Below, piece after piece: positions 14,575 to 56,677 of a stretch of 64,000 nt of DNA. Position 1 is the stretch's first letter. Each line of letters opens with the position of its first letter. Both the position numbers and the translations under genes were made by a program. This DNA comes from a virus: the UHGV virus genome UHGV-0212524; one strand, given 5' to 3'. Below the pieces are notes generated by a model, which ran no database searches, was not told the DNA's origin, and saw only the letters and a list, made by a program, of their open reading frames with translations.

Positions 14575-14619
14575 TCAGATATATATTACCTAGGGGAGAG
14601 CGAAATTTACATTCGCTCT
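14575..14619 (+). promoter_or_regulatory. conserved promoter-like motif with stem-loop (copy 1 of 4)
   Basis: TCAGATATATATTACCTAGG followed by inverted repeat AGAGCGAA..TTCGCTCT; directly after a terminator. Confidence 0.5.
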
Positions 14620-18193: not shown

Positions 18194-18255
18194 TCAGATA
18201 TATATTACCTAGGTGAGAGTTCAGCTACTCTCACTTAACTAAAACCATTTTAGGA
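18194..18255 (+). promoter_or_regulatory. conserved promoter-like motif + stem-loop + conserved 5'UTR/RBS (copy 2 of 4)
   Basis: TCAGATATATATTACCTAGG + GTGAGAGT..ACTCTCAC + CTTAACTAAAACCATTTTAGGAG immediately before ATG 18265. Confidence 0.55.
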
Positions 18256-46200: not shown

Positions 46201-47620
46201 TCGCTGATTCACGAAGCAGTTTTTTCTGGGCGGTTAACGTTGCCTGCGTTGGGTACTTAGCGTTTACGTAATCGGTTAATTGCTCCTTAGTTTTCCCGTA
46301 GGCTAATGCTGCGTCGGATGCAATGCCGTTTAATTCTAACGCACGAATCGGACCCCAGGTGTCAGCGTGTGGGTTATCCTTACGGGTGACGTGTTCGTGC
46401 GCAGGCGCGTTGCGATAGAGCTGTTCTACTAACTGATGGTACTTAACGATTAACTGATAAACGTCGTTACTTACGTCTGCTTCTGGCGCACCAGGTAACG
46501 CAAGGAATTGAGCATAATCGTTCTCAGCCGCCCACCAGTTTAAGTTAACGTTGGTTTTGTACTTCAGCCACTTCGCAACATCCGTTTTGGTGTAACCTGC
46601 TGAGAATTCGTCTGGCGGTGTGTCAACGTTAAAGGTGTAGTCCATGGACTGTTTGTTAGTCGTCACCTCGATAACGTATACACCGTTACCCGGTTGACGA
46701 ACAACGCTAAACGTTAATTCGCCTTTTAATTCATCGTCGGTCAAACCGTTGATTAACGTATAATCATAATCGGTCGAACCACTGCCTAACGCAACTGTCA
46801 GTCGTAGGCTGATTTTACGTTGTTTTAATTGGAGACGAAGGATACTTGCGCCACCGTTCGCGTAGCACAACATCCAATCGATTTGTTCGTTCGGATTAAT
46901 ACTCCCCATATTCGGAAAAATAGCCGGAATACGGTATTTCATCGACAGGGAATATTCATTTAACGTGGTGGTTTTGTACGTAACGGAGAAACGGCGTTTA
47001 GCGGTATTGTAAGTATACCCACCTTTGTTGTCGTACGTTGCGTACTGTTCAGACGTGATAACCGTACCATTAGCACGATGCTCGATATCTAACGTGTTAC
47101 GTGCAATCGGGTCTACCCGATTCACCACGTTACCTAACGAATCACCTAAGCCTGCAATGGCCTGCATTAATTCCAGTTCACCTTTCCAGTTTTCCCAGTC
47201 GAACTGAATATCGACCGGTGGAAAGTAAACTTCGCCGATAACGGTATCCCATTGACACGCAGACGGGTATTTATCTTTATTGAGTTCGCGTTCTGCGGTA
47301 ATCTGTTCTTGGGTCGCTTCACCACAACCTACGGCGTGGTAATCTACCGTGAAATTCGATTTGTATTTGTCATTAACAATCCAAATCATCCCGTGCACGA
47401 GATAGGCTGTGCGCAACATACCGGTCTCGTACGGGTGTGTAATAACGTAATCGTCGCCTAAGGTCAGTATTTTGCCGCCGCTCTTGACCACCAGGGATGT
47501 GGTGAAAAAAGGGGCGTGGGCAGGTACCAACATTCGGTACTTCGTACCAATGACGGCGACCGCTTCACCGGTTATTTTATTCCCCGGTTCTTTGAAGTGT
47601 GGGTCTAGGACGACAGCCAT
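43298..47620 (-). CDS. giant tail fibre/baseplate-like structural protein (1440 aa), first gene of minus-strand operon
   Basis: N-terminal PAHAPFFTTSLVV......GDDYVI module; 10-nt gap to next gene. Confidence 0.75.
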   Translation of the reverse strand: MAVVLDPHFKEPGNKITGEAVAVIGTKYRMLVPAHAPFFTTSLVVKSGGKILTLGDDYVITHPYETGMLRTAYLVHGMIWIVNDKYKSNFTVDYHAVGCGEATQEQITAERELNKDKYPSACQWDTVIGEVYFPPVDIQFDWENWKGELELMQAIAGLGDSLGNVVNRVDPIARNTLDIEHRANGTVITSEQYATYDNKGGYTYNTAKRRFSVTYKTTTLNEYSLSMKYRIPAIFPNMGSINPNEQIDWMLCYANGGASILRLQLKQRKISLRLTVALGSGSTDYDYTLINGLTDDELKGELTFSVVRQPGNGVYVIEVTTNKQSMDYTFNVDTPPDEFSAGYTKTDVAKWLKYKTNVNLNWWAAENDYAQFLALPGAPEADVSNDVYQLIVKYHQLVEQLYRNAPAHEHVTRKDNPHADTWGPIRALELNGIASDAALAYGKTKEQLTDYVNAKYPTQATLTAQKKLLRESASKNVNGTITTLPGFTSFTTEVDPVSMSKYVSPYFSESYVSSGHRYHGALRYTGTKSGFSANFNAVPANLQDIDFIVTGRKTASGNEAVGRVGFRFYENPGSNSGKYVEITGEVWSGTLTIELALHGYGSPVPAVRYISQAPNPAIPDGDFTLRFQLKRTGNVFDVVITVNSKTYSGRINFNNMDAALEALENQHHFKSLINNVADGVNISSQNKGNTVTIKKAPGVVDERRLGAQFVVDPKSIKFIGQGSTDVNVGNNPVTLQAGDNQLVLYPDDRGLLWRGKKLLDPTTVAPYLPGNTAGGTGLFYGATTATVELTGSGIKASPFVATFILPVAEDVTTLACWQLTDEFGTAENLAATPALIEKLDAEFTGKLVAAKSYINDMQLTSSVTIDKITFGLGNVANTPDVDLPISVAQQTELDKYSPKVHQHPSSVFGVANADTTKRGLIKFGLEVDDATLALDGSVVMAQTSQIEDLENTVGGVDSGARVDIIRFGKSGNDLIDVTVKDKILVTLPASTYFVGGETYDVPLMSVNVTERFPNLNKEIYAGIFVDIVDNKAKYIIHDSYSQAETDTMTRVGLIGINDLSEVFVTELRNVTRLGDFRELKDHVANDNAHIQRSASRAVLGLSNLTVGAPCWASGLQAVVRGEADWRYVVGGGYKALDGVKYDQLASKWVFDAKGVSDNVHGFIHNLFPVFNNAGMRVSWETESNAKTGTVLETILACWKNTEDEFMRLSLLITRGYRLTDSNGEYCYAGFGLNFGNGKSVVLGFTPTKRVTPAPWSTLHPDVSFTHTRGANNELTFNATLTLAGTVYTIVVYLSAADKYVSCTAAGGTTQKISLTDRLTGFNLAPIVNDPYTPIYYGLGGLYEDEVRANIRSTTDSITGNKLYGTLLDYISNYSSLNRVRVMELAGTSSDPETLNALVATEFNNSLADYAALPIPPYLNKERVMSFIDTNNKVQAVIIRD

Positions 47621-47687
47621 TATCTACTCCTATAGTCCGTGGGCGTCGAGTTCATACTATGACTTGAATCTATTGAGGAAAAGAGCT

Positions 47688-48950
47688 GTGACTACTGCTT
47701 ATCAAGTGCGGCCTGACAGCGCTTTTGGCTTCTCTCGAGAGACCCGTACCTGGGGAGCCATCGACGTCACGCAACCCTTAGAAACCTTGTGTTCTGATTA
47801 CCATATTTTCGAAGTCGGTCTGAGTGCGCTTGGTAAAGACTATACGTTAATTAGCCAATATCACCTCGCTGACTTACAAAACCGTACCGATACGTTACAA
47901 GACTGGCTGAATGAAAAAGCCGGTGTGGTTATCTCTGCGTTGAAAGACGGTTTACCGACGTTAGAGTTTGATTGGGCACACTACCAATCGATTAATGCCG
48001 ATGTTCCAGTAGAAACCTACCTGTGTCCTCCCGGTTACCATTACAGTCAAGATTTCAGTATAGACGATGCTGACGACGTTGTGATTGTTTGCGAAGATAA
48101 ATGGAAAGACAAATACCGTAACGGGGTGTTGTACAACATCAACGGTCAATGGGTACCACATCAGTCGGATACAGTTGGTGTACGTTTACCGGGCGCGGGT
48201 AAGATAGTACGTCGTGCAGGGACACCGGATATCGGCTGCATGGTCTTTAGTAAATTGGGGAATGTTAAAACGTACCCCATTGCTAACTTGACCCTAAACA
48301 AACTCGACACCACCCGTGACTATTATTCCACGTTAATGATTTCTTTACCGGAATCTATTACGGGTAAAACCGTGGGGTTTGTTATCGGGGGTCTGATACA
48401 CTGGTTACCGGTTACTGGGTACTTCTCCGACAAAGCCATTATGGTCTCGTTACCGAACTTTGACGTTGCGCGTACTGTGTTAGAAACCCGACGTTATTAC
48501 GACTGGGATAGCATCGGTGTTGGCGATCTGTCATCCCCGACCAGCGTACAGCGTATCCGCAACCCAGAAACATTAAAGGCGCTTTTAACCCACGAGTCGT
48601 CGTTTATCTTTACGGTGGATAATCCGTATCTGGAAGAAGAAGTTGTGGGGGTTTCTCACAACGCTATCTGGGGACGTTTATACCTTAAAGATCCTAATGA
48701 CCCTGATGGGGAAAAACAGCTGGGCTATCTGTTAAACCGCTTCGGTAAAACCGTTGCTTATTGGCCGACGTGGGAAGAAGGGGAATGGGTATTTAACACC
48801 ACGGAATTCGACAGTCAAAACTACGTGTTCCGTGAGGCCCGTTGGTATAACCAGAAGAAAATTAACGATGCACAGGCAATCGTAGGACCTTTCGGTCCCT
48901 GGGAAAAAGTCTATTTGGAAATGCATCGTTTCCGTGCAAGAAAAAAATAA
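47688..48950 (+). CDS. hypothetical protein (421 aa), divergent from structural operon
   Basis: GTG at 47688 with GAGGA RBS preferred over 47472, which would overlap the minus gene by ~150 nt. Confidence 0.55.
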   Translation: MTTAYQVRPDSAFGFSRETRTWGAIDVTQPLETLCSDYHIFEVGLSALGKDYTLISQYHLADLQNRTDTLQDWLNEKAGVVISALKDGLPTLEFDWAHYQSINADVPVETYLCPPGYHYSQDFSIDDADDVVIVCEDKWKDKYRNGVLYNINGQWVPHQSDTVGVRLPGAGKIVRRAGTPDIGCMVFSKLGNVKTYPIANLTLNKLDTTRDYYSTLMISLPESITGKTVGFVIGGLIHWLPVTGYFSDKAIMVSLPNFDVARTVLETRRYYDWDSIGVGDLSSPTSVQRIRNPETLKALLTHESSFIFTVDNPYLEEEVVGVSHNAIWGRLYLKDPNDPDGEKQLGYLLNRFGKTVAYWPTWEEGEWVFNTTEFDSQNYVFREARWYNQKKINDAQAIVGPFGPWEKVYLEMHRFRARKK

Positions 48951-48997: not shown

Positions 48998-49207
48998 TTA
49001 GTCTTTTTTGTAGACAATCGCGTTACCGTGCAGTTTGTTGTTACCGGAAATACCGATAACTTTAAACGCTTCACCGCCGATCTTTTCAGCTTCGACAGCC
49101 AGCTTAGCAGTAACGTCGTCTACGGTATCACCGAAAGCGCTTACGTTACCAATTTTCTTGAACTCTTCAGGAATGTGTTCAGCAGAAGAGAATTCTTTAA
49201 TAGCCAT
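48998..49207 (-). CDS. small DUF1471-like (YhcN/BhsA-like) protein lacking a signal peptide
   Basis: 69 aa; AFKVIGISGNNKLHGNAIVYKK resembles the conserved core of enterobacterial DUF1471 proteins as recalled. Confidence 0.45.
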   Translation of the reverse strand: MAIKEFSSAEHIPEEFKKIGNVSAFGDTVDDVTAKLAVEAEKIGGEAFKVIGISGNNKLHGNAIVYKKD

Positions 49208-49406: not shown

Positions 49407-50372
49407 TCAGCGTGGGCCTGAAGTTGGGCCATGGACGCCGTCGTGGATGTGTACGCTGAAGGTAATACCGGAAATCACCGCATCCTTAACCGTAAAGATA
49501 CCCACGCCTTCGCCCGTACCACCGTATTTGAAGTTCTTAGCAACTTCCAAATTACCGGTGAACATCGCTTCGTTACCTTCTTGCTTAAAGTTCGGCGTTT
49601 TATACGTTGTTGAACCAGAAGCTTCAGTTAGCCAGGTTTCTGTTTTAAAGGTAACCGATTTCGACGCTTCGGTATTCCGAACTTCGCATTTCTCATTAAT
49701 CGTTTTCGTTTCCAGGTTAATCGAACGTTTTGCGTAAATGAACGCATCTTCTTTGTTGATGTTCACTTTCGAGAGCATCGCGTTCTCAAAACCTAAATCG
49801 TCTTCCACCGAGTTAATGTAATACTTATTCCCTTTATGGTCAACGCACTGCCACGACCCGTTAGCGTTATCGAATTGGAATAACCACGCCGCTTTCTCCC
49901 CATTCACCATACTTGTTCTTAGGGTAACGTGTTTGTCAATCGTTGAGACGTTTAACACATACGCGTTCGACAAGTCATCCGCCATCTGGTTTTCCGGGTC
50001 AGCCGACCACGCGTAAACCGCATCCTCTAATCGCTTAACGTTAGCGAAATTCAAATCAATCCAAAAATAAATATCAGTTTGCCCTAGACGTAGCAAGATA
50101 ACGTAATCTTCTCGCTTAACGTCTGGGGAATTAATTCGGTTGGAATTAAATTTCCACCACTTTGCAGTAATCGTGTTACCGGTTTTAATCGTTAGGTTGT
50201 CGATAGCACCCCCAGTATCGTGTACCTTTTCAGCGGTTGAGGAAACTGATTGTACAACGGTAGGGTTCGCAAAGTTGGTTTCAATTGGTATCACTTTTAC
50301 CCGATCTGTACCACGGGGTTTGTCTTCCGCGACGATACCAATCGAGAAAAAGTCAACGCTGGATTTCTCCAT
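49407..50372 (-). CDS. hypothetical structural protein with C-terminal HxH motif (possible central spike)
   Basis: 321 aa; C-terminus FSVHIHDGVHGPTSGP; assignment speculative. Confidence 0.5.
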   Translation of the reverse strand: MEKSSVDFFSIGIVAEDKPRGTDRVKVIPIETNFANPTVVQSVSSTAEKVHDTGGAIDNLTIKTGNTITAKWWKFNSNRINSPDVKREDYVILLRLGQTDIYFWIDLNFANVKRLEDAVYAWSADPENQMADDLSNAYVLNVSTIDKHVTLRTSMVNGEKAAWLFQFDNANGSWQCVDHKGNKYYINSVEDDLGFENAMLSKVNINKEDAFIYAKRSINLETKTINEKCEVRNTEASKSVTFKTETWLTEASGSTTYKTPNFKQEGNEAMFTGNLEVAKNFKYGGTGEGVGIFTVKDAVISGITFSVHIHDGVHGPTSGPR

Positions 50373-50400
50373 TAGGTCGTTCCTTAGATCGGAAATGAAT

Positions 50401-50453
50401 TCAGATATATTTTACTTAAGTGAATAGGGGCTGAACTCGCACTTCAGCCCCTA
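50401..50453 (+). promoter_or_regulatory. conserved promoter-like motif with downstream stem-loop (copy 3 of 4, diverged)
   Basis: TCAGATATATTTTACTTAAG + hairpin TAGGGGCTGAA..TTCAGCCCCTA; ~50 nt upstream of small ORF 50505..50582. Confidence 0.45.
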
Positions 50454-50504
50454 TGGGCACGTTTCTTTCGAAACGGAGTTACCATGTGATTAGGAGACAG
50501 ACCA

Positions 50505-50582
50505 ATGTCTACTGAGAAGAAAAGCGGATTGGACGAAGTCATCGTACTGTTCAAACGCTACAACCCGGCTATTCCTCGGTAA
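50505..50582 (+). CDS. small ORF (25 aa)
   Basis: ATG with AGGAGA RBS downstream of promoter-like motif; MSTEKKSGLDEVIVLFKRYNPAIPR. Confidence 0.25.
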   Translation: MSTEKKSGLDEVIVLFKRYNPAIPR

Positions 50583-50758
50583 TCATAGTATTACTTAAAA
50601 TTTACAGATTGTCCCTTTATTCTGCTACTCGGGATACCGGTAGGGGGTAGGGGGCAATATGTATACGGATATAAATAGCGGAGGTATACGTAGTATACCG
50701 ACATACTCTTCCCAGAGGAACGTAGTGACTCCCTTATTCCATTTTAGGAGAATATATC
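50583..50758. promoter_or_regulatory. non-coding region with direct repeat GGTAGGG x2 and palindrome GGTATAC-gta-GTATACC
   Basis: 176-bp gene-free stretch ahead of the 50759 paralog cluster; tandem GGTAGGG (50639..50652); perfect 7-bp inverted repeat (50683..50699); extra GTATAC at 50662. Confidence 0.35.
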
Positions 50759-51316
50759 ATGATTACTATCGAAATGAAACAACAAGCTATTGAGTTTGTT
50801 AAGCTGGGTGCAGGTAAACACCAACTTGATTATCCTTGCGTTATACAGTCTAACGTTATCCGGCCAGGTACAATGATTACCGGTCTTCAAGTTGAAGAAT
50901 TTGATGGAGATGCTGTGGTTTGGGAACGCCGTTTCTCACGACTTAATTATCATAGTGTCGGAGATAGTTTTACCGAAATATTCCGTCATCTGTTTTCCGG
51001 TACCGGATGGAAAGTAACGAGTGCGTTCTACGGTGGCAATGTTATTACCCTTCTAGACAGAGGAGATGCACGTTATCTCGTGAACTTTACTTTCGCAAGA
51101 CGCTACGCATATTTCCCTAACCCACTTACGTGTACGTTAAGTAACCCAGGAATACTACTAACAGATAAAGAAGCAGAGGCACTACTTACAGAACTGAAAA
51201 AGGACGGTTGTGATATTGATGACTGGGAAACATTGGTAGGGACAGCAAAAGCACACGGTTGGCATACAGTGCGCAAACTCGGTCAGCAACTGTTGTTCTT
51301 AGCTTATAACGTTTAA
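50759..51316 (+). CDS. hypothetical protein, GW..V...G.QLLF C-terminal module family
   Basis: 185 aa; AGGAG RBS; C-terminus GWHTVRKLGQQLLFLAYNV. Confidence 0.6.
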   Translation: MITIEMKQQAIEFVKLGAGKHQLDYPCVIQSNVIRPGTMITGLQVEEFDGDAVVWERRFSRLNYHSVGDSFTEIFRHLFSGTGWKVTSAFYGGNVITLLDRGDARYLVNFTFARRYAYFPNPLTCTLSNPGILLTDKEAEALLTELKKDGCDIDDWETLVGTAKAHGWHTVRKLGQQLLFLAYNV

Positions 51317-51345
51317 GTAACGAACAACCCTAAAGGAGAGTAAAA

Positions 51346-52497
51346 ATGCGAAATATTATTTCTAAACCAGGACATGTCAAGATCCTAAAAGAACTGATGG
51401 ACAGATGCTATAATCAGACTTGGCCTCTGCCAAGCTTAACCATCGAGTCTTCATTACAACGCGAGTTGTTTGGTTATAACTTGGGCTGCTGTGTACTGAG
51501 TGAATACGATGAGATTATCGCGCCTGTCGATGTCTGTACTTACGATGAAGAAATTGAAGGTTACCAGTTCGAGGTTTACACAAATTCTGGACTAAATTAC
51601 CGTAAACTCGTTGTTAGAGAAAAGAGTAGCGGCCGGAAGATTATGTTTAAGGTCTTCCCAAGCGGTAAAGTCAGTAGTTTATGTTTTCAGCTTGAGCAAG
51701 TGTCCTTTCACGGTGCAGCTATTTTAACTAAACCAGAACTCGCGTTATTAAGTGGGTTAATTGGTTTTGAAGCAAAAACCATCAAAGTTGAGCAGGAACT
51801 CACACGAAACGATTTCGGCTCGACCTGGTACGAAAGTTTCTTCCGCTACGAAATGTTAAGTGATAAAGCTATCAAGCTCACTTACCGTTCTACCGACGAT
51901 CTCGTTTACCACATTTTAATTAGCGGCGAACCCCACCTGATTATTGAAGACAAAGGAGAAAATCAAATGTCTGCCTTAAGAGACGAATTAGCCCAATTCA
52001 TTCGTGACGTCGAAGAGAAAAGCAAGAGCGAACACATTTTCTCACAACGCTATCCTGAACTTATTGACGAGACCACCGATAGTGTCGTCGACGGTATACG
52101 CATTTTCCCAAGTGGTCTTGCAATCTACCGACTGCCCAGCGTTAACCAGCTTAAAGTCATGGAAATGCTAAAAGACGTTTTAGCAGAAGCGGGTTGGGAA
52201 TATCGTTTCGATTGCAATTTCGAAGGGATGGCGTTATTCGTTACAAAGAAAAATTATACGTTGTCAATCGATCTGCCCAAAAGTCAATATTACAGTTTCT
52301 TCCCGAAAGCGGATGACCGCACTGAAAAAGAACCTGCGTTGTTACTCGATGCGGCAGAATCCAATACGCTAATGATGCGTCTGCGGATGGTTGACAAAAA
52401 GTTAAATACCGGCCATTTAACGACGATCGGTAAAGATTACGGTTGGAAATCTGTCGAACCGTACGGCAGTCAGCTGCTGTTTGTTGCTGACCTTTAA
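51346..52497 (+). CDS. hypothetical protein, GW..V...G.QLLF C-terminal module family
   Basis: 383 aa; AGGAG RBS; C-terminus GWKSVEPYGSQLLFVADL. Confidence 0.6.
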   Translation: MRNIISKPGHVKILKELMDRCYNQTWPLPSLTIESSLQRELFGYNLGCCVLSEYDEIIAPVDVCTYDEEIEGYQFEVYTNSGLNYRKLVVREKSSGRKIMFKVFPSGKVSSLCFQLEQVSFHGAAILTKPELALLSGLIGFEAKTIKVEQELTRNDFGSTWYESFFRYEMLSDKAIKLTYRSTDDLVYHILISGEPHLIIEDKGENQMSALRDELAQFIRDVEEKSKSEHIFSQRYPELIDETTDSVVDGIRIFPSGLAIYRLPSVNQLKVMEMLKDVLAEAGWEYRFDCNFEGMALFVTKKNYTLSIDLPKSQYYSFFPKADDRTEKEPALLLDAAESNTLMMRLRMVDKKLNTGHLTTIGKDYGWKSVEPYGSQLLFVADL

Positions 52498-52523
52498 TAA
52501 GTGAAAATACACTTTCTCTAACT

Positions 52524-52547
52524 GCCGCGCTTTAGTCGCGGCTTTTG
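52524..52547 (+). terminator. rho-independent terminator
   Basis: GCCGCG-CTTTAGT-CGCGGC + TTTTG. Confidence 0.6.
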
Positions 52548-52564
52548 TTAAGAAGGAAATAGAA

Positions 52565-53338
52565 ATGAAAGTCCATTTAGACGATATCTTTAAAACCGAA
52601 CCGTATATGATCGAAGGCCCGCTAACGTCGCTACTATTTGCCGATAGACTAGATCGAACGTTGCAATTACAATCGGTCGAATCTGCACCGATTAACGATG
52701 TAGAGCGCTACGAGCGCATCAACCATACGCGGGGTGAGTATCGTCGCTATAAGCCAAACTCACTAACCATCAAGCTTTGGAAAGTGAGCACAGGTAAAGT
52801 ATTAACTTATCGCGCTGTTGGTAGTTATTACATTCAACAGGCCAAAGAGTGGTTAGAAAAAGTTAAAGAACTGAACTTCGATCTACTGAGCAAAAAACTG
52901 CGCGATCATAACGCCAGTTTGCCGATACGTAATTATTTCTCCACGATTGAAAATAGTCGTTGCTTCGTTTCCAGCAAGTCTATGATATCGCCTGGGGCTG
53001 ATGTTCAAACAACACTGAAAGATGTGATTGTGAAGAAAATCTTTCATGAATCTGAACACGTTGGATTTCGTATCTATTTAACGCACAAGAGGCCATTTAC
53101 CGTGATTCATGTTGTTACCGCACCCGAAGGCTCGGCAGTCGTACGTGAACTTCCTGACGCACGTGACCGTAGCCCTAATGAGCCACTTTACTTAATGTCA
53201 GGAACAAAATCAGAATCTTTGATGTCCCGTTACAGCATGGTTGATGTTGTTGATACTGCTATGAAGTTAGGTTGGAAAGAAGTACAGCAGCACGGCAAAC
53301 AATTGCTGTTTATCGCAGATGTAAATCTCAATAACTAA
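52565..53338 (+). CDS. hypothetical protein, GW..V...G.QLLF C-terminal module family
   Basis: 257 aa; C-terminus GWKEVQQHGKQLLFIADV. Confidence 0.6.
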   Translation: MKVHLDDIFKTEPYMIEGPLTSLLFADRLDRTLQLQSVESAPINDVERYERINHTRGEYRRYKPNSLTIKLWKVSTGKVLTYRAVGSYYIQQAKEWLEKVKELNFDLLSKKLRDHNASLPIRNYFSTIENSRCFVSSKSMISPGADVQTTLKDVIVKKIFHESEHVGFRIYLTHKRPFTVIHVVTAPEGSAVVRELPDARDRSPNEPLYLMSGTKSESLMSRYSMVDVVDTAMKLGWKEVQQHGKQLLFIADVNLNN

Positions 53339-53350
53339 AGAGGTGGTACC

Positions 53351-53929
53351 GTGTACCGATTAATAGAAATGAGAAAAGACGTTTGGTTGGAAAACCTCGT
53401 CGATGGGGAGCTTGAGGGAATAGAGCTTTCCTTACCAGAGAGAGCGGACACGGTATTGGCCTTTCTGGTAAAACAGGCAGACCGTGAGCCGGTAGGAATT
53501 TTCACTGTGGACTATAAAGATCCGCGAGGAATTCATTTACGGAACATTTGCAGTGGTTTGGAAAACTTACCGGCTAATCCGTTCTTAAACTACGCAAAAC
53601 GTAAACTCCAACCGGGACAACACCTCTGGGTAACGTTATCGCCTGACGTTAGGATCATACGTGACGATTACTCGGCGTTTGTACAGGCAACGAAAGTCAG
53701 TCTGTATAACCCGAACGCAGAGCGTACCGATATGCCGTTTATAATTACCTTAGAAGACGATGGAACGCAAGAAGGTATCGAGGCAATTACGGAATTAGTA
53801 AACTCTTATCCGGTTGCCACTATCGAGATAGAAAACCCAAGCCGTTTACAATTGGGTGACCTGCTCGAATGGATCGAACTGAATACAGAATTCTTAATCA
53901 ATTCTCGTCAGTATCGATTCGACGTTTAA
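53351..53929 (+). CDS. hypothetical protein
   Basis: 192 aa; GTG start with AGAGGTGG RBS; terminator follows. Confidence 0.5.
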   Translation: MYRLIEMRKDVWLENLVDGELEGIELSLPERADTVLAFLVKQADREPVGIFTVDYKDPRGIHLRNICSGLENLPANPFLNYAKRKLQPGQHLWVTLSPDVRIIRDDYSAFVQATKVSLYNPNAERTDMPFIITLEDDGTQEGIEAITELVNSYPVATIEIENPSRLQLGDLLEWIELNTEFLINSRQYRFDV

Positions 53930-53933
53930 CAAC

Positions 53934-53962
53934 GGTGGGGTGTAAACCCCACCTTTTTTTTG
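53934..53962 (+). terminator. rho-independent terminator
   Basis: GGTGGGG-TGTAAA-CCCCACC + TTTTTTTT. Confidence 0.8.
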
Positions 53963-53984
53963 TTCTCTAACATTAAAAATAATC

Positions 53985-54046
53985 TCAGATATATATTACT
54001 TAGGTGAGAGTACAAAAGCTCTCACTTAACTAAAACCATTTTAGGA
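53985..54046 (+). promoter_or_regulatory. conserved promoter-like motif + stem-loop + conserved 5'UTR/RBS (copy 4 of 4)
   Basis: TCAGATATATATTACTTAGG + GTGAGAG..CTCTCAC + CTTAACTAAAACCATTTTAGGAG before ATG 54056; near-identical to copy 2. Confidence 0.55.
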
Positions 54047-54055
54047 GTATTAACG

Positions 54056-54427
54056 ATGAAAAGCGAATTGTTCAAAGACCCGTTTGTTGTATTACTGATC
54101 GTTACTCGCGCTGCCACTAACCCAGAAGACCTGAAACGTTTACTTGCCAACGAAGCATACCTTATCGAACAGCGTGACGCGCAGTTAGCCAAACCACACG
54201 CTGAAGGCCAGGTGAAAGACCTTATCTCTATTTTCCGTAACGAAGAATGGCGTAAAAACAACCAGCTGTCCGACAACCTGACGGTTGCAATTGCAAAACT
54301 CTTGACACTGTTCAATCTTGACAAAGACATTAACCAAAGCCTTTCTACAGAAGAACGTCTGGAGATGATAAGAGGTATCGGAGATAGCTATACGCAGATT
54401 AAAGCATTCCCCAACACAGTTATTTAA
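54056..54427 (+). CDS. hypothetical protein
   Basis: 123 aa; TAGGAG RBS within conserved promoter/5'UTR unit. Confidence 0.55.
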   Translation: MKSELFKDPFVVLLIVTRAATNPEDLKRLLANEAYLIEQRDAQLAKPHAEGQVKDLISIFRNEEWRKNNQLSDNLTVAIAKLLTLFNLDKDINQSLSTEERLEMIRGIGDSYTQIKAFPNTVI

Positions 54428-54473
54428 TTTCATGTTTTGTGGGAACTTCCCCATAACCCGAAGGAGCATTTCA

Positions 54474-54935
54474 ATGAAAACCTTTACCACATTCTTAATA
54501 ACCATTTTAACTTTCGGCCTCAATAGCGCACACGCCGCTATCAATAGCTGGGAACAAATACAAAACCCTGGCCAGGTAGTTTACGAAATCGAAGACACCG
54601 CCGGAAACGGACTGTCTATCAACTGTGACACTGAAACTGCGAATCGCAAATTTTACGGTCGGATGGTTTGGTATTACGGGGAACCCGTAGGTGCAACTAA
54701 CGCTGAAGATAACACGATGGATATTGTCGTAAACGGCAAAACCTATAACATCCCTACCGTGGACGGTAGTGACAAAGCAGAACTCGCTTGGGTTGCTTTC
54801 GTTAATGCTATCGGTAATGCCAAAACTTTCAGTGTGAGTATCAATGGTAACGATGCCGCTAACTTTACCGTAGAAGGCGATCGTTTATCTGAAACTTTCT
54901 TCCAGAACTGTGGACACACCCGTCCTAACAAATAA
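54474..54935 (+). CDS. secreted small protein (signal peptide), first of five
   Basis: Start at internal ATG with AAGGAG RBS; MKTFTTFLITILTFGLNSAHA signal-like N-terminus. Confidence 0.55.
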   Translation: MKTFTTFLITILTFGLNSAHAAINSWEQIQNPGQVVYEIEDTAGNGLSINCDTETANRKFYGRMVWYYGEPVGATNAEDNTMDIVVNGKTYNIPTVDGSDKAELAWVAFVNAIGNAKTFSVSINGNDAANFTVEGDRLSETFFQNCGHTRPNK

Positions 54936-54963
54936 CTAATAATCTTTTTTAGAGTGCGTGAAA

Positions 54964-55350
54964 ATGAATATCAGAACTATACTTTATACCATCATTATTT
55001 TCTGTGCAATCGGTATTACTGGCACTTATGCTTTCGGCGATTCGGACGTCCGCCATTACGAACCGGCTCCTGACTCACCCATTATCAACCCGGACGAGTC
55101 ACCTACGTTAATGCGCAGTTTCGGTAAACTGCAAGTTTATCGCTTAGTACGCGGTGAAACGTGTACCGGATTACTCATTGCCGACACCCGTGCACAAGTC
55201 TACCAACGTCTGACGGATATCGCCTGCGAACAACCAAAAGTCATGTCGGTCAGTATTCATCCGTTAGAGGTCGGAAACTATACTGCTGTGGACTTCTTCC
55301 ATAATGCAGAACTGATTGGCCGTATTACTTTAAATCGTAGCGCTGAATAA
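54964..55350 (+). CDS. secreted small protein (signal peptide)
   Basis: MNIRTILYTIIIFCAIGITGTYAFG hydrophobic N-terminus; 2 Cys in mature part; start uncertain (54958 GTG or 54964 ATG). Confidence 0.5.
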   Translation: MNIRTILYTIIIFCAIGITGTYAFGDSDVRHYEPAPDSPIINPDESPTLMRSFGKLQVYRLVRGETCTGLLIADTRAQVYQRLTDIACEQPKVMSVSIHPLEVGNYTAVDFFHNAELIGRITLNRSAE

Positions 55351-55368
55351 TTTAATGGAGAATTTACA

Positions 55369-55851
55369 ATGAAACGTTTACATACCCTGATGTTCTTCGT
55401 GGCTATTCTGTTCACAGGCTTTACCTTTAACGCAGAAGCGGCTACCGTAAAACAAGCACTTAGCTGTAACCCGGAAGCCTGGGCTGAACAACCTGGAGCG
55501 TGTCCTGATATCAACACACTCTATACTGACGATGCGACTTATAAAGCCGCAATCGATAAAGCGTTGAAACCGGTCGGACTAGACGGATTATTCGGTAAAG
55601 ATGGTGTAATGAATGGTCCTGGCGGCGATGTTATTCCCGTGCAAATCAACGGCAAAGTCTGGCTTGAGTCTACCGCTTGCAAAAGCAATGCTTGTGGTTG
55701 GGAATACATCACGACGCTTTATAACCCTCAGACCCATGTCGTAGTAGGTTACTATTACAACGTCGACCCAGGTTATCTGGTTTGGTTTGGCGATATCGGC
55801 GTTAATGAATTCGCCTATCTGGTTAAGAAATACGTAGCTGCGGTTAACTAA
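55369..55851 (+). CDS. secreted small protein (signal peptide)
   Basis: MKRLHTLMFFVAILFTGFTFNAEA signal peptide with AxA-like site; 4 Cys in mature part. Confidence 0.55.
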   Translation: MKRLHTLMFFVAILFTGFTFNAEAATVKQALSCNPEAWAEQPGACPDINTLYTDDATYKAAIDKALKPVGLDGLFGKDGVMNGPGGDVIPVQINGKVWLESTACKSNACGWEYITTLYNPQTHVVVGYYYNVDPGYLVWFGDIGVNEFAYLVKKYVAAVN

Positions 55852-55866
55852 TTTAAGGAGTCTGTC

Positions 55867-56277
55867 ATGAAAACGTTTATCAAAACTTTACTCGTTGCTG
55901 TAACTGTTCTGTTCTCTCTTAACGTAGCAGCAAAAACAGTAAAACTACCGGCGGGTATCAAATACGTCAACAGTACCGACGAATTCTACTGCACAGAAAT
56001 TGACGGTCTGTATTGCCAGACAAAGAATTTGTTTGAATACAAAGGTAACAGGTATGTTTTCGTTGTTGAGCAAGGCGGTGCCTGGTGCTACGACAGCCCT
56101 ATGTCGGTGCTCAATCTGGAAACTTGGAAAGCACAGAAAATTGAATACAAAGACAACCAACTGTGTTCAGGCGAAAACAAACCGTTCTTCAAAATCAAAA
56201 ATGGTGTGCCGACTGTAGGTGTTATCGACACCTCTGGAGCACCCATCGTTGTCGCTCAGGACAAACTTAAAATCTAA
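55867..56277 (+). CDS. secreted small protein (signal peptide)
   Basis: MKTFIKTLLVAVTVLFSLNVAA signal peptide; 4 Cys; AAGGAG RBS. Confidence 0.55.
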   Translation: MKTFIKTLLVAVTVLFSLNVAAKTVKLPAGIKYVNSTDEFYCTEIDGLYCQTKNLFEYKGNRYVFVVEQGGAWCYDSPMSVLNLETWKAQKIEYKDNQLCSGENKPFFKIKNGVPTVGVIDTSGAPIVVAQDKLKI

Positions 56278-56287
56278 GGAGTAAACC

Positions 56288-56677
56288 ATGCGTCTTATCT
56301 GCGCTTTGTTGGCGTTTTTCTCAATCGGAGTTATGGCTTCTACACACATCGACGATTTATTACTTACCCCGGCAACGAACACAGACTATCACTACAACCC
56401 ACCGGGTTTTGAAGTCTGCGAAGGCGATGCAGGCGAGTGCCAAGAAGTTGGCGCAGATGGACGCTATATACTCGTAAAAGCAGACGGCGGAACAACCTGC
56501 CCTGCGGGTTATTATTTCGTACTTGACGCTGTAGCAAAAGAGGTGCTTCCTGTAACGACCAAAACGTGTGACCCCACAGTTGTACTAACGCTTGCGAAAA
56601 GCAAATCACGTGACCGTCATCTTATCGTCATCGAAGAACGCGGTGAGATGCTAGGCGCTATCGAATTAGATTACTGA
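56288..56677 (+). CDS. secreted small protein (signal peptide)
   Basis: MRLICALLAFFSIGVMAS signal-like N-terminus; 4 Cys; AAGGAG RBS; terminator follows. Confidence 0.55.
   Translation: MRLICALLAFFSIGVMASTHIDDLLLTPATNTDYHYNPPGFEVCEGDAGECQEVGADGRYILVKADGGTTCPAGYYFVLDAVAKEVLPVTTKTCDPTVVLTLAKSKSRDRHLIVIEERGEMLGAIELDY

What the first reader, a model, noticed from the sequence alone, without database searches (positions are those of the whole stretch)
50759..53338. Three tandem paralogs with variable N-terminal regions and a conserved C-terminal module
The C-termini align (..GWHTVRKLGQQLLFLAYNV / ..GWKSVEPYGSQLLFVADL / ..GWKEVQQHGKQLLFIADV) with a preceding conserved (M/L)..R..MVD segment in two of them, while the N-terminal regions differ in length (185, 383, 257 aa). 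This is a polymorphic-protein-like layout with a shared docking or targeting module and diversified effector parts.
Basis: seen in the sequence. Interest (0 to 1): 0.5.

Follow-up and report, generated by a model that had tools for sequence, protein, structure and literature searches.

The report
Jumbo-phage tandem accessory-gene cassette family
Three neighbouring genes of a giant (about 222 kb) enterobacterial phage are true paralogs that share a small, previously undescribed C-terminal protein module found only in this clade of jumbo phages; they behave as fast-shuffling, probably early-expressed accessory genes whose biochemical function is still unknown.

Summary
ORFs A (50759-51316, 185 aa), B (51346-52497, 383 aa) and C (52565-53338, 257 aa) are paralogs. 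The universally shared core is a ~65-70 aa C-terminal module (PDxxDR[ST]xN[DE]P loop, strand, two helices, GWxxVxxxGxQLLFxA hairpin). The N-terminal regions of B and C are unrelated to it and to each other.

The window is a phiKZ-like jumbo phage related to SPN3US and phiEaH2. Relatives carry one such gene at the same position after the baseplate gene. Sister phages carry a probable fourth copy, lost here by a precise deletion. An exhaustive search of 1.84 billion proteins found only about 55 clusters. Every member traced to a genome is from a jumbo phage of Enterobacterales or Shewanella, with unrelated partner domains or none.

No Pfam, PDB, defence-system or literature match exists. The genes are under purifying but relaxed selection, recombine at gene and domain borders, and follow a conserved early-promoter-like motif. 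The modular layout is supported. A polymorphic-toxin or effector identity is not. Function is inferred only: early host-interaction adaptors.

The parts
50402..50416 (+). Promoter-like motif CAGATATATTTTACT, predicted early (virion RNA polymerase type) promoter of the array
   Evidence: Only 4 occurrences of the relaxed pattern in 64 kb, all on the + strand and all intergenic upstream of + strand genes. Conserved at the same position in six sister phages, and about 100 nt upstream of the family gene in Phobos and CR5. Resembles the AT-rich early consensus described for phiKZ-related phages (PMC5312081). Activity not tested.
50425..50451 (.). Conserved GC-rich hairpin (AGGGGCTGAA-loop-TTCAGCCCCT) at the start of the leader
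   Evidence: Read from the sequence. The leader is 98% identical to L017. Role unknown.
50759..51316 (+). Paralog A, 185 aa: consists only of the shared ~175-aa unit. The C-terminal module is about residues 116-185 (nt 51104-51313), with a degenerate loop motif (PNPLTCTLSNP).
   Evidence: AF2 model pLDDT 82, pTM 0.71. dN/dS 0.19-0.26.
51346..51960 (+). Paralog B, N-terminal domain (residues 1-205), unrelated to the shared unit
   Evidence: hhalign probability below 1% against the unit. Replaced independently of the unit in orthologs P0089-P0095 (35% vs 93% identity). AF2 confidence only moderate.
51961..52497 (+). Paralog B, shared unit (residues 206-383). Module about residues 316-383 (nt 52291-52494).
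   Evidence: AF2 pLDDT about 85 for this part.
52524..52542 (+). Terminator-like hairpin GCCGCG...CGCGGC followed by TTTT, between B and C
   Evidence: and sequence. Consensus match only.
52565..53338 (+). Paralog C, 257 aa: own N-terminal region (about residues 1-146) plus the shared part. Canonical module at residues ~192-257 (nt 53138-53335), LPDARDRSPNEPLYLMS...GWKEVQQHGKQLLFIADV.
   Evidence: (phrog_26772 E 3.8e-11, C-terminus only).
53351..53929 (+). Gene D (192 aa, phrog_20879). Not a family member, but lies in the same predicted transcription unit.
   Evidence: (module score about 0).
53934..53953 (+). Strong terminator-like hairpin plus T-run, closing the predicted unit
53986..54000 (+). 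Second copy of the promoter-like motif (CAGATATATATTACT), start of the next unit
   Evidence: (repeat D3).

Best explanation
SHOWN. A, B and C are a tandem expansion of an accessory protein family.
- Every member that could be traced to a genome comes from a phiKZ-like (chimallivirus-type) jumbo phage of Enterobacterales or Shewanella. Most of the metagenome clusters were not placed.
- Its hallmark is a ~65-70 aa C-terminal alpha/beta module: a conserved P-D-x-x-D-R-S/T-x-N-D/E-P loop, a short strand, two helices and a terminal hairpin (GWxxVxxxGxQLLFxA).
- A, B, C and the phiEaH2-type proteins additionally share a ~110-aa alpha/beta region in front of it. B and C have further, unrelated N-terminal parts.
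- Most relatives have one gene at this position, the first rightward gene after the divergently oriented baseplate gene. This lineage has three, and sister phages have four.
- The array evolves by cassette gain and loss, and by recombination at gene and domain borders. The fourth gene was lost here by recombination between the near-identical Shine-Dalgarno/start sequences AGGAGAAnATAnCATG.
- All copies are under purifying but relaxed selection.

INFERRED. The array plus gene D is an early operon read from a virion-RNA-polymerase-type promoter.

INFERRED. The proteins are non-virion, cytoplasmic host-interaction factors (host takeover or counter-defence). The invariant module would be the common handle that binds a constant partner or mediates oligomerisation. 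The interchangeable front parts would give target specificity.
For: Paralogy and module.

Family size and architectures: 55 clusters in 1.84e9 representatives, most matching only the last ~70 profile positions at the C-terminus, with stand-alone forms.

Taxonomic restriction to jumbo phages.

Synteny with a single copy in SPN3US (SPN3US_0175), phiEaH2, Phobos, CR5 and Huxley.

Four-gene array in L005, L013, L014, L015 and L017. The extra gene aligns end-to-end with C (hhalign 67%, E 5e-5). Deletion junction.

Discordant identities (A 81/88/75/44%; B N-domain 94/75/35/92%; B unit 98/76/93/53%; C 97/75/75/90%) against 91-100% for the three structural-side genes upstream. dN/dS is 0.10-0.26 for the family against 0.03-0.10 for those neighbours.

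Promoter-like motif and terminators.

Other: the SPN3US ortholog gp175 does not appear in the text of the SPN3US papers searched, including the virion mass-spectrometry paper. The module is near-neutral or acidic. AF2 models are confident for the unit.
Against: - No functional annotation, domain fusion or structural homolog ties the family to any activity.
- Early expression rests on a sequence motif only.
- No overall positive selection was detected (dN/dS below 0.3), so an arms race is not demonstrated. The mosaicism could reflect general recombination in accessory regions.
- The partner of the module is unknown.
- Absence of the SPN3US ortholog from virions is absence of mention in the main texts searched, not a direct test.
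Confidence: 0.45

Rival explanations
1. The module is a winged-helix-type nucleic-acid-binding domain, and the family are phage transcription or DNA-associated regulators whose N-terminal parts sense or oligomerise.
Confidence: 0.15
2. The proteins are virion-assembly or host-range accessories of the adjacent baseplate/tail module (chaperones, adaptors or minor fibre components), diversifying with host receptors.
For: The array sits immediately next to the baseplate gene and large structural genes. It shows high variability and cassette turnover, as seen for host-range genes.
Against: The genes are on the opposite strand, behind an early-type promoter motif, in a block of non-structural genes. 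In Phobos the neighbouring genes are annotated as virion structural proteins and the family gene is not. SPN3US gp175 is not mentioned in the SPN3US papers searched. Members also occur elsewhere in genomes, for example inside a tRNA cluster in FBKp24 and next to phoH in PhiEaH1. The constant part is C-terminal, whereas fibre proteins usually keep the N-terminus constant.
Confidence: 0.1
3. The module is a localisation tag that delivers interchangeable cargo domains to a structure specific to nucleus-forming phages (nuclear shell, import machinery or the early infection vesicle).
For: Every traced member comes from a chimallivirus-type jumbo phage. The position is extreme C-terminal, and the module is portable with a strictly conserved exposed loop. 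A close relative, Asesino, is an experimentally nucleus-forming phage (PMC11724907).
Against: The module is absent from most chimalliviruses, including the phiKZ/PhiPA3 group and Goslar (none appear in the tblastn hit lists). It therefore cannot be a general import signal. No interaction or localisation data exist. Stand-alone modules without cargo are common.
Confidence: 0.1
4. It is a polymorphic toxin/immunity-like or other conflict system with diversified effector domains.
For: Tandem paralogs, modular recombination and a shared terminal module.
Against: Reversed polarity. No toxin, peptidase, nuclease or secretion domain. No small immunity-like gene paired with each copy. A has no effector part at all.
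Confidence: 0.03

Closest known systems
PHROG families phrog_26772, phrog_33648 (SPN3US gp175 type), phrog_24489 (phiEaH2 gp097 type) and phrog_18480 (Huxley/Machina type), all 'unknown function'
   Same: They share the C-terminal module. B and C hit the C-terminal ends of these profiles, and so do stand-alone modules and other architectures. They occupy the same genomic position after the baseplate gene in SPN3US, phiEaH2, Phobos, CR5 and Huxley.
   Different: PHROGs splits them into separate families, and none covers A or the N-terminal parts of B and C. Published phages have one copy at the syntenic position by tblastn, whereas this lineage has three or four. No published phage has orthologs of A, B or C.
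Polymorphic toxin systems (Rhs, CDI and related; Zhang et al. 2012, cited within PMC7824862)
   Same: Modular proteins in which one end is constant and the other is swapped by recombination. Tandem arrays of variants.
   Different: The constant end here is C-terminal, not N-terminal. There are no toxin or trafficking domains and no immunity genes. The context is a phage early operon rather than a secretion system.
Winged-helix domains (e.g. RepE, Stn1, plant O-methyltransferase dimerisation domain)
Early, virion-RNA-polymerase-transcribed accessory gene blocks of phiKZ-related phages
   Same: An AT-rich, highly conserved promoter-like element upstream (CAGATATATWTTACY against the AR9 early consensus AAATATATATTAT-(6N)-G). 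Small non-structural genes of unknown function. Strong intrinsic terminators.
   Different: Transcription was not measured for this phage or any close relative. The exact consensus for this clade is defined here from sequence only.

Membership tests
Module family (unifying phrog_26772/33648/24489/18480) | Significant match to a module profile built from other members | tested here: met
   HMM without window sequences: C 67, B 47 and A 47 bits against at most 4.4 bits in 900 shuffles. PHROG hits for C (3.8e-11) and B (1.6e-4), none for A. A is linked through B.
Module family (unifying phrog_26772/33648/24489/18480) | Loop motif P-D-x-x-D/E-R-S/T-x-N-D/E-P followed by the terminal GWxxVxxxGxQLLF hairpin, at the C-terminus | tested here: met
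   C is canonical. B is nearly so (PKADDRTEKEP). A has a degenerate loop (PNPLTCTLSNP) but an intact hairpin. 26 of 26 aligned modules match both relaxed patterns.
Module family (unifying phrog_26772/33648/24489/18480) | Encoded by a phiKZ-like jumbo phage, typically as the first rightward gene after the baseplate gene | tested here: met
   Baseplate protein is 63-73% identical to SPN3US, phiEaH2, Asesino and Stratton. Synteny.
Polymorphic toxin systems | Constant N-terminal trafficking/secretion region with a variable C-terminal toxin domain | tested here: not met
   The constant part is C-terminal and the variable part N-terminal.
Polymorphic toxin systems | Recognisable toxin domain and cognate immunity gene downstream of each variant | tested here: not met
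   No Pfam, NCBIfam or PADLOC domain. No small paired ORFs between A, B and C: the intergenic gaps are 29 and 67 nt.
Winged-helix DNA-binding domains | Significant structural similarity to solved winged-helix domains | tested here: inconclusive
Winged-helix DNA-binding domains | Basic, conserved recognition helix or wing suited to nucleic-acid contact | tested here: not met
   Module median pI 6.7. A, B and C modules have pI 5.1-5.7.
Early (virion RNA polymerase) genes of phiKZ-related phages | Extended, highly conserved AT-rich promoter element upstream | tested here: met
   CAGATATATTTTACT at 50402-50416. There are four near-identical intergenic copies in the window, conserved in position in sister phages. 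Literature description in PMC5312081.
Early (virion RNA polymerase) genes of phiKZ-related phages | Transcript present within minutes of infection, independent of new protein synthesis | not testable with these tools
   No transcriptome of this phage or a close relative was available. The SPN3US infection proteome paper (PMC6384053) is not held.
Anti-phage defence or counter-defence catalogues | Match to a PADLOC model | tested here: not met
   Only a 15.8-bit chance-level hit of the B N-domain to DpdF.

The most novel reading that the evidence does not exclude
The C-terminal module is a portable, sequence-defined docking tag specific to a clade of nucleus-forming jumbo phages. It would attach interchangeable cargo or specificity domains to one constant phage or host structure, such as the nuclear shell or import apparatus, the early infection vesicle, or a conserved host hub protein. 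Stand-alone modules would act as competitors or regulators. The tandem array would then be a toolkit of early effectors sharing one address label.
Probability: 0.1. Interest if true: 0.8.

Novelty: new variant of a known kind. Interest (0 to 1): 0.4.

Why it matters
Jumbo phages that build a nucleus-like compartment carry hundreds of genes of unknown function, and the early accessory genes are where host takeover and counter-defence functions are expected.

This work does three things. It defines a small undescribed protein module, absent from Pfam and PDB, that unifies four separate 'unknown' PHROG families. It shows that the module is recombined with many unrelated partner domains. It also documents a lineage in which the gene has expanded to three or four copies, with very recent cassette loss.

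That gives experimenters a compact, testable target. The SPN3US ortholog gp175 lies in a phage with an established amber-mutant collection (PMC5105663, PMC5694885). If the module proves to be a common docking handle, it would be a useful tool and a clue to how these phages organise early infection. If not, this remains one more ordinary lineage-specific phage gene family.

Tried and rejected
- **B's N-domain or C's N-region as extra copies of the unit:** rejected, hhalign probabilities below 1%.
- **Gene D (phrog_20879) as a co-evolving partner:** its distribution is narrower than the module's, and it is not always adjacent (it is SPN3US gp177, not gp176). No support.
- **TAGTATTAC in the leader as a promoter motif:** not enriched, 17 matches against 17.8 expected. 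Replaced by the CAGATATATWTTACY motif.
- **Sigma-70-type promoters in the region:** not above shuffled expectation.
- **Known RNA families in 50300-53950:** none.
- **Domain fusions that could hint at function:** 20 module-bearing proteins scanned against Pfam and 10 against PHROGs, nothing informative. P0128 and P0141 from the exhaustive search are spurious repeat-protein hits.
- **PDB sequence searches with the unit and module profiles:** nothing.
- **The search for related loci with the module alignment:** failed, because no stretch was conserved enough.
- **Prohead-protease cleavage motif (S/A/G-x-E, recalled from memory) in the conserved loop:** does not fit the sequences. Dropped without a formal test.
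- **SPN3US infection proteomics paper (PMC6384053):** not held.
Full report
**1. What is in the sequence**

All lie on the + strand with the quoted C-terminal strings, and each has a good Shine-Dalgarno site.

BLASTP among them gives B-C 38% over 65 aa (50 bits), A-B 22% over 110 aa (39 bits) and A-C 28% over 64 aa (29 bits). With ortholog alignments, profile-profile comparison gives:
- A vs B: 97.6% probability, E 3e-12, 167 columns (A 6-181 = B 211-381).
- C vs B: 97.1%, E 7e-11, 107 columns (C 147-257 = B 271-383).
- A vs C: 83.5%, E 8e-6, 56 columns.

A module HMM built only from proteins of other phages scores C 67, B 47 and A 47 bits. No value exceeds 4.4 bits in 900 shuffles, and the next two genes score about 0. 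The window holds exactly three copies.

Two corrections apply. The shared part is much longer than 50 aa for A/B, because A is nothing but the shared unit. And the N-terminal parts of B (1-205) and C (1-146) are unrelated to the unit and to each other.

**2. Where it is**

The window has no megablast match in the phage collection for 50700-54000. The adjacent minus-strand gene 49407-50372 is a baseplate protein (phrog_3216, E 5e-112). It is 63-73% identical to those of Erwinia phages Stratton, phiEaH2 and Asesino and of the Salmonella phage SPN3US group. These are phiKZ-like jumbo phages, and Asesino is experimentally nucleus-forming (PMC11724907, listed).

In SPN3US (SPN3US_0175), phiEaH2 (gp097), Phobos (gp176), CR5 (CR5_165) and Huxley (gp185), a single gene with the same C-terminus but different length (223-412 aa) occupies the same position. 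It sits after the divergently oriented baseplate gene, first or second in the rightward block (a 105-aa gene comes first in SPN3US and phiEaH2), and upstream of an SMC-domain gene.

Nearly identical phages (about 96% nt) are deposited as circular 'plasmids' of about 222 kb. One is in Enterobacter ludwigii (NZ_CP134650.1) and one in E. coli 98232 (NZ_CP173450.1). All genes there are annotated 'hypothetical protein'. Many more relatives exist in Salmonella, Shigella and E. coli read sets and in metagenomes.

**3. The family**

PHROG matches of B and C fall only on the C-terminal ends of four separate 'unknown function' families: phrog_26772, 33648, 24489 and 18480.

An exhaustive HMMER search of 1.84 billion representative proteins with the unit profile found only 55 clusters at E <= 1e-3. 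Most match only the last ~70 profile positions, almost always at the extreme C-terminus of proteins of 72-534 aa. The set includes stand-alone 72-150 aa proteins, some with an insertion between the two halves, and one with the module at the N-terminus (P0145); PhiEaH1 gp105, found by tblastn, has the same arrangement.

tblastn places the module only in jumbo phages: the SPN3US group, Erskinevirus, Derbicusvirus, Machinavirus, PhiEaH1/Ea277G, the ~300-kb Klebsiella/Serratia phages (a stand-alone gene inside a tRNA cluster in FBKp24) and Shewanella SXP01.

The consensus is (I/L)PDxx(D/E)R(S/T)xN(D/E)PxYLMSxK ... A(K)xxGWxxVxxxGxQLLF(I/V)A. Nothing matches in Pfam, NCBIfam, PADLOC or PDB sequences, and no member is fused to a known domain. 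I found no paper describing the family. SPN3US gp175 is not mentioned in the text of three SPN3US papers searched, including the virion mass-spectrometry paper.

**4. Structure**

AlphaFold2 models are confident for the unit: A has pLDDT 82 and pTM 0.71, and B residues 208-383 have pLDDT about 85. B's N-domain is only moderately confident.

The unit runs as follows: helix; beta strands; helix; a three- to four-stranded meander; the conserved loop; then strand-helix-helix-hairpin, which is the module.

The module is near-neutral or acidic: median pI 6.7, and 5.1-5.7 in A, B and C. This argues against a classical DNA-recognition domain.

**5. Evolution**

Five sister loci (L005, L013, L014, L015, L017) have a fourth gene of 244-250 aa between the leader and A. 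Its profile aligns end-to-end with C (hhalign 67%, E 5e-5, 234 columns). The start (M.ELLDDIF) and the end (GWG.AEIT...LLLIK) are similar, so it is probably a degenerate fourth paralog.

The window and the E. ludwigii record lack it. The junction lies inside a 16-nt microhomology, AGGAGAAnATAnCATG, with which both the fourth gene and A begin. This is a precise in-register cassette loss.

Amino-acid identities between the window and four relatives (L015/L014/L013/L005) are discordant:

| Region | Identity (%) |
|---|---|
| A | 81/88/75/44 |
| B N-domain | 94/75/35/92 |
| B unit | 98/76/93/53 |
| C | 97/75/75/90 |
| Structural-side genes upstream | 91-100 |

This indicates recombination at gene borders and at the B domain junction. 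dN/dS is 0.19-0.26 for A, 0.13-0.23 for B and 0.10-0.15 for C, against 0.03-0.10 for the structural neighbours. Selection is therefore purifying but relaxed, with no gene-wide positive selection.

**6. Expression signals (inference)**

A 15-nt motif, CAGATATAT(A/T)TTAC(C/T), occurs four times in the window. All four copies are on the + strand and intergenic: 14576, 18195, 50402 and 53986.

The copies at 50402 and 53986 bracket the array plus gene D, and they are conserved in position in all sister loci. The same motif lies about 100 nt upstream of the family gene in Phobos and CR5, and occurs in the SPN3US, phiEaH2 and Huxley loci.

It resembles the AR9 early consensus AAATATATATTAT-(6N)-G. 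[quoted passage not shown]

Terminator-like hairpins follow B (52524-52542) and D (53934-53953). I therefore predict an early transcription unit: promoter 50402, leader, A, B, C, D.

**7. Interpretation**

Shown:
- A real tandem paralog array.
- A new portable C-terminal module.
- Restriction of all traced members to one clade of jumbo phages.
- Cassette turnover and domain-level recombination.
- Purifying selection.

Inferred:
- Early expression and a non-virion, cytoplasmic location.
- A role as modular host-interaction (takeover or counter-defence) factors, in which the constant module binds a constant partner or oligomerises and the variable front parts give specificity.

Rivals are listed with their tests: a winged-helix regulator, a baseplate-associated assembly or host-range factor, a compartment-targeting tag, and a polymorphic toxin. 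The literal polymorphic-toxin reading fails on polarity, domain content and the absence of immunity genes.

**8. Verdict**

The finding is a real feature, more extensive than described, and belongs to an uncharacterised jumbo-phage family. It is a new variant of a familiar phenomenon: lineage-specific, recombining accessory-gene cassettes in large phages. It is moderately interesting because it defines a compact undescribed module with a testable adaptor hypothesis, but no evidence yet points to an unprecedented mechanism.

Noticed in passing
window 14576-14590, 18195-18209, 50402-50416, 53986-54000 (+); also L003:4140, L004:3986, L001:8687, L002:7450, L012:4233 and 7300: Recurrent intergenic motif CAGATATAT(A/T)TTAC(C/T), always on the + strand upstream of + strand genes and conserved across several genera of enterobacterial jumbo phages. 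It is probably the early (virion RNA polymerase) promoter consensus of this clade.
   Followed up: partly
whole window; NZ_CP134650.1 (L016) and NZ_CP173450.1 (L017): This ~222-kb jumbo phage is not in the phage collection. It is deposited as circular 'plasmids' in complete assemblies of Enterobacter ludwigii (gull cloaca) and E. coli (human urine). Relatives appear in many Salmonella, Shigella and E. coli isolate read sets, which suggests a carrier state or pseudolysogeny, or culture contamination.
   Followed up: partly
L005:5234-5971, L013:3671-4405, L014:3635-4387, L015:5651-6388, L017:2887-3639; window junction about 50741-50761: Sister phages have a 244-250 aa gene ahead of A, a probable degenerate fourth paralog closest to C. 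The window lost it through a 16-nt microhomology spanning the Shine-Dalgarno site and start codon.
   Followed up: yes
window 50425-50451 and 50505-50582 (+): The conserved 386-nt leader contains a GC-rich hairpin right after the promoter-like motif, and a 25-codon ORF (MSTEKKSGLDEVIVLFKRYNPAIPR) with a good Shine-Dalgarno site. SPN3US and phiEaH2 have a 105-aa gene at this place instead.
   Followed up: no
window 48998-49207 (-): A 69-aa DUF1471 / YdgH-BhsA-like gene, a bacterial periplasmic stress-protein family, sits inside the phage structural block. It is conserved in all relatives, and the identical protein accession occurs in two 'plasmid' records.
   Followed up: no
window 54432-56677 (+): A run of five small proteins (129-167 aa) with signal-peptide-like N-termini. 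Relatives carry YfjT-family (PF27224) genes here. Identity to relatives is uneven (64-96%), and gene E (54056-54427) is present or absent between sister phages, so this is another cassette-turnover zone.
   Followed up: no
window 47472-48950 (+): The mechanical ORF call (492 aa, TTG) over-extends into the 1440-aa structural gene on the other strand. Relatives annotate 420 aa, corresponding to a start at 47688 (phrog_3337, annotated as a putative virion structural protein in Phobos and Huxley).
   Followed up: partly
L001:6331-8679 (SPN3US gp176-gp179) and L002:5111-7442: Four consecutive genes of about 175-195 aa follow the family gene in SPN3US and phiEaH2. The window's gene D matches only one of them (SPN3US gp177). 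They may form a second tandem paralog family.
   Followed up: no
BFVD hits (e.g. Erwinia phage Wellington): Groups of BFVD accessions with neighbouring prefixes match the unit fold, and one hit is named as Erwinia phage Wellington. tblastn shows only one module copy per published genome, so more divergent paralogs may exist elsewhere in those genomes.
   Followed up: no
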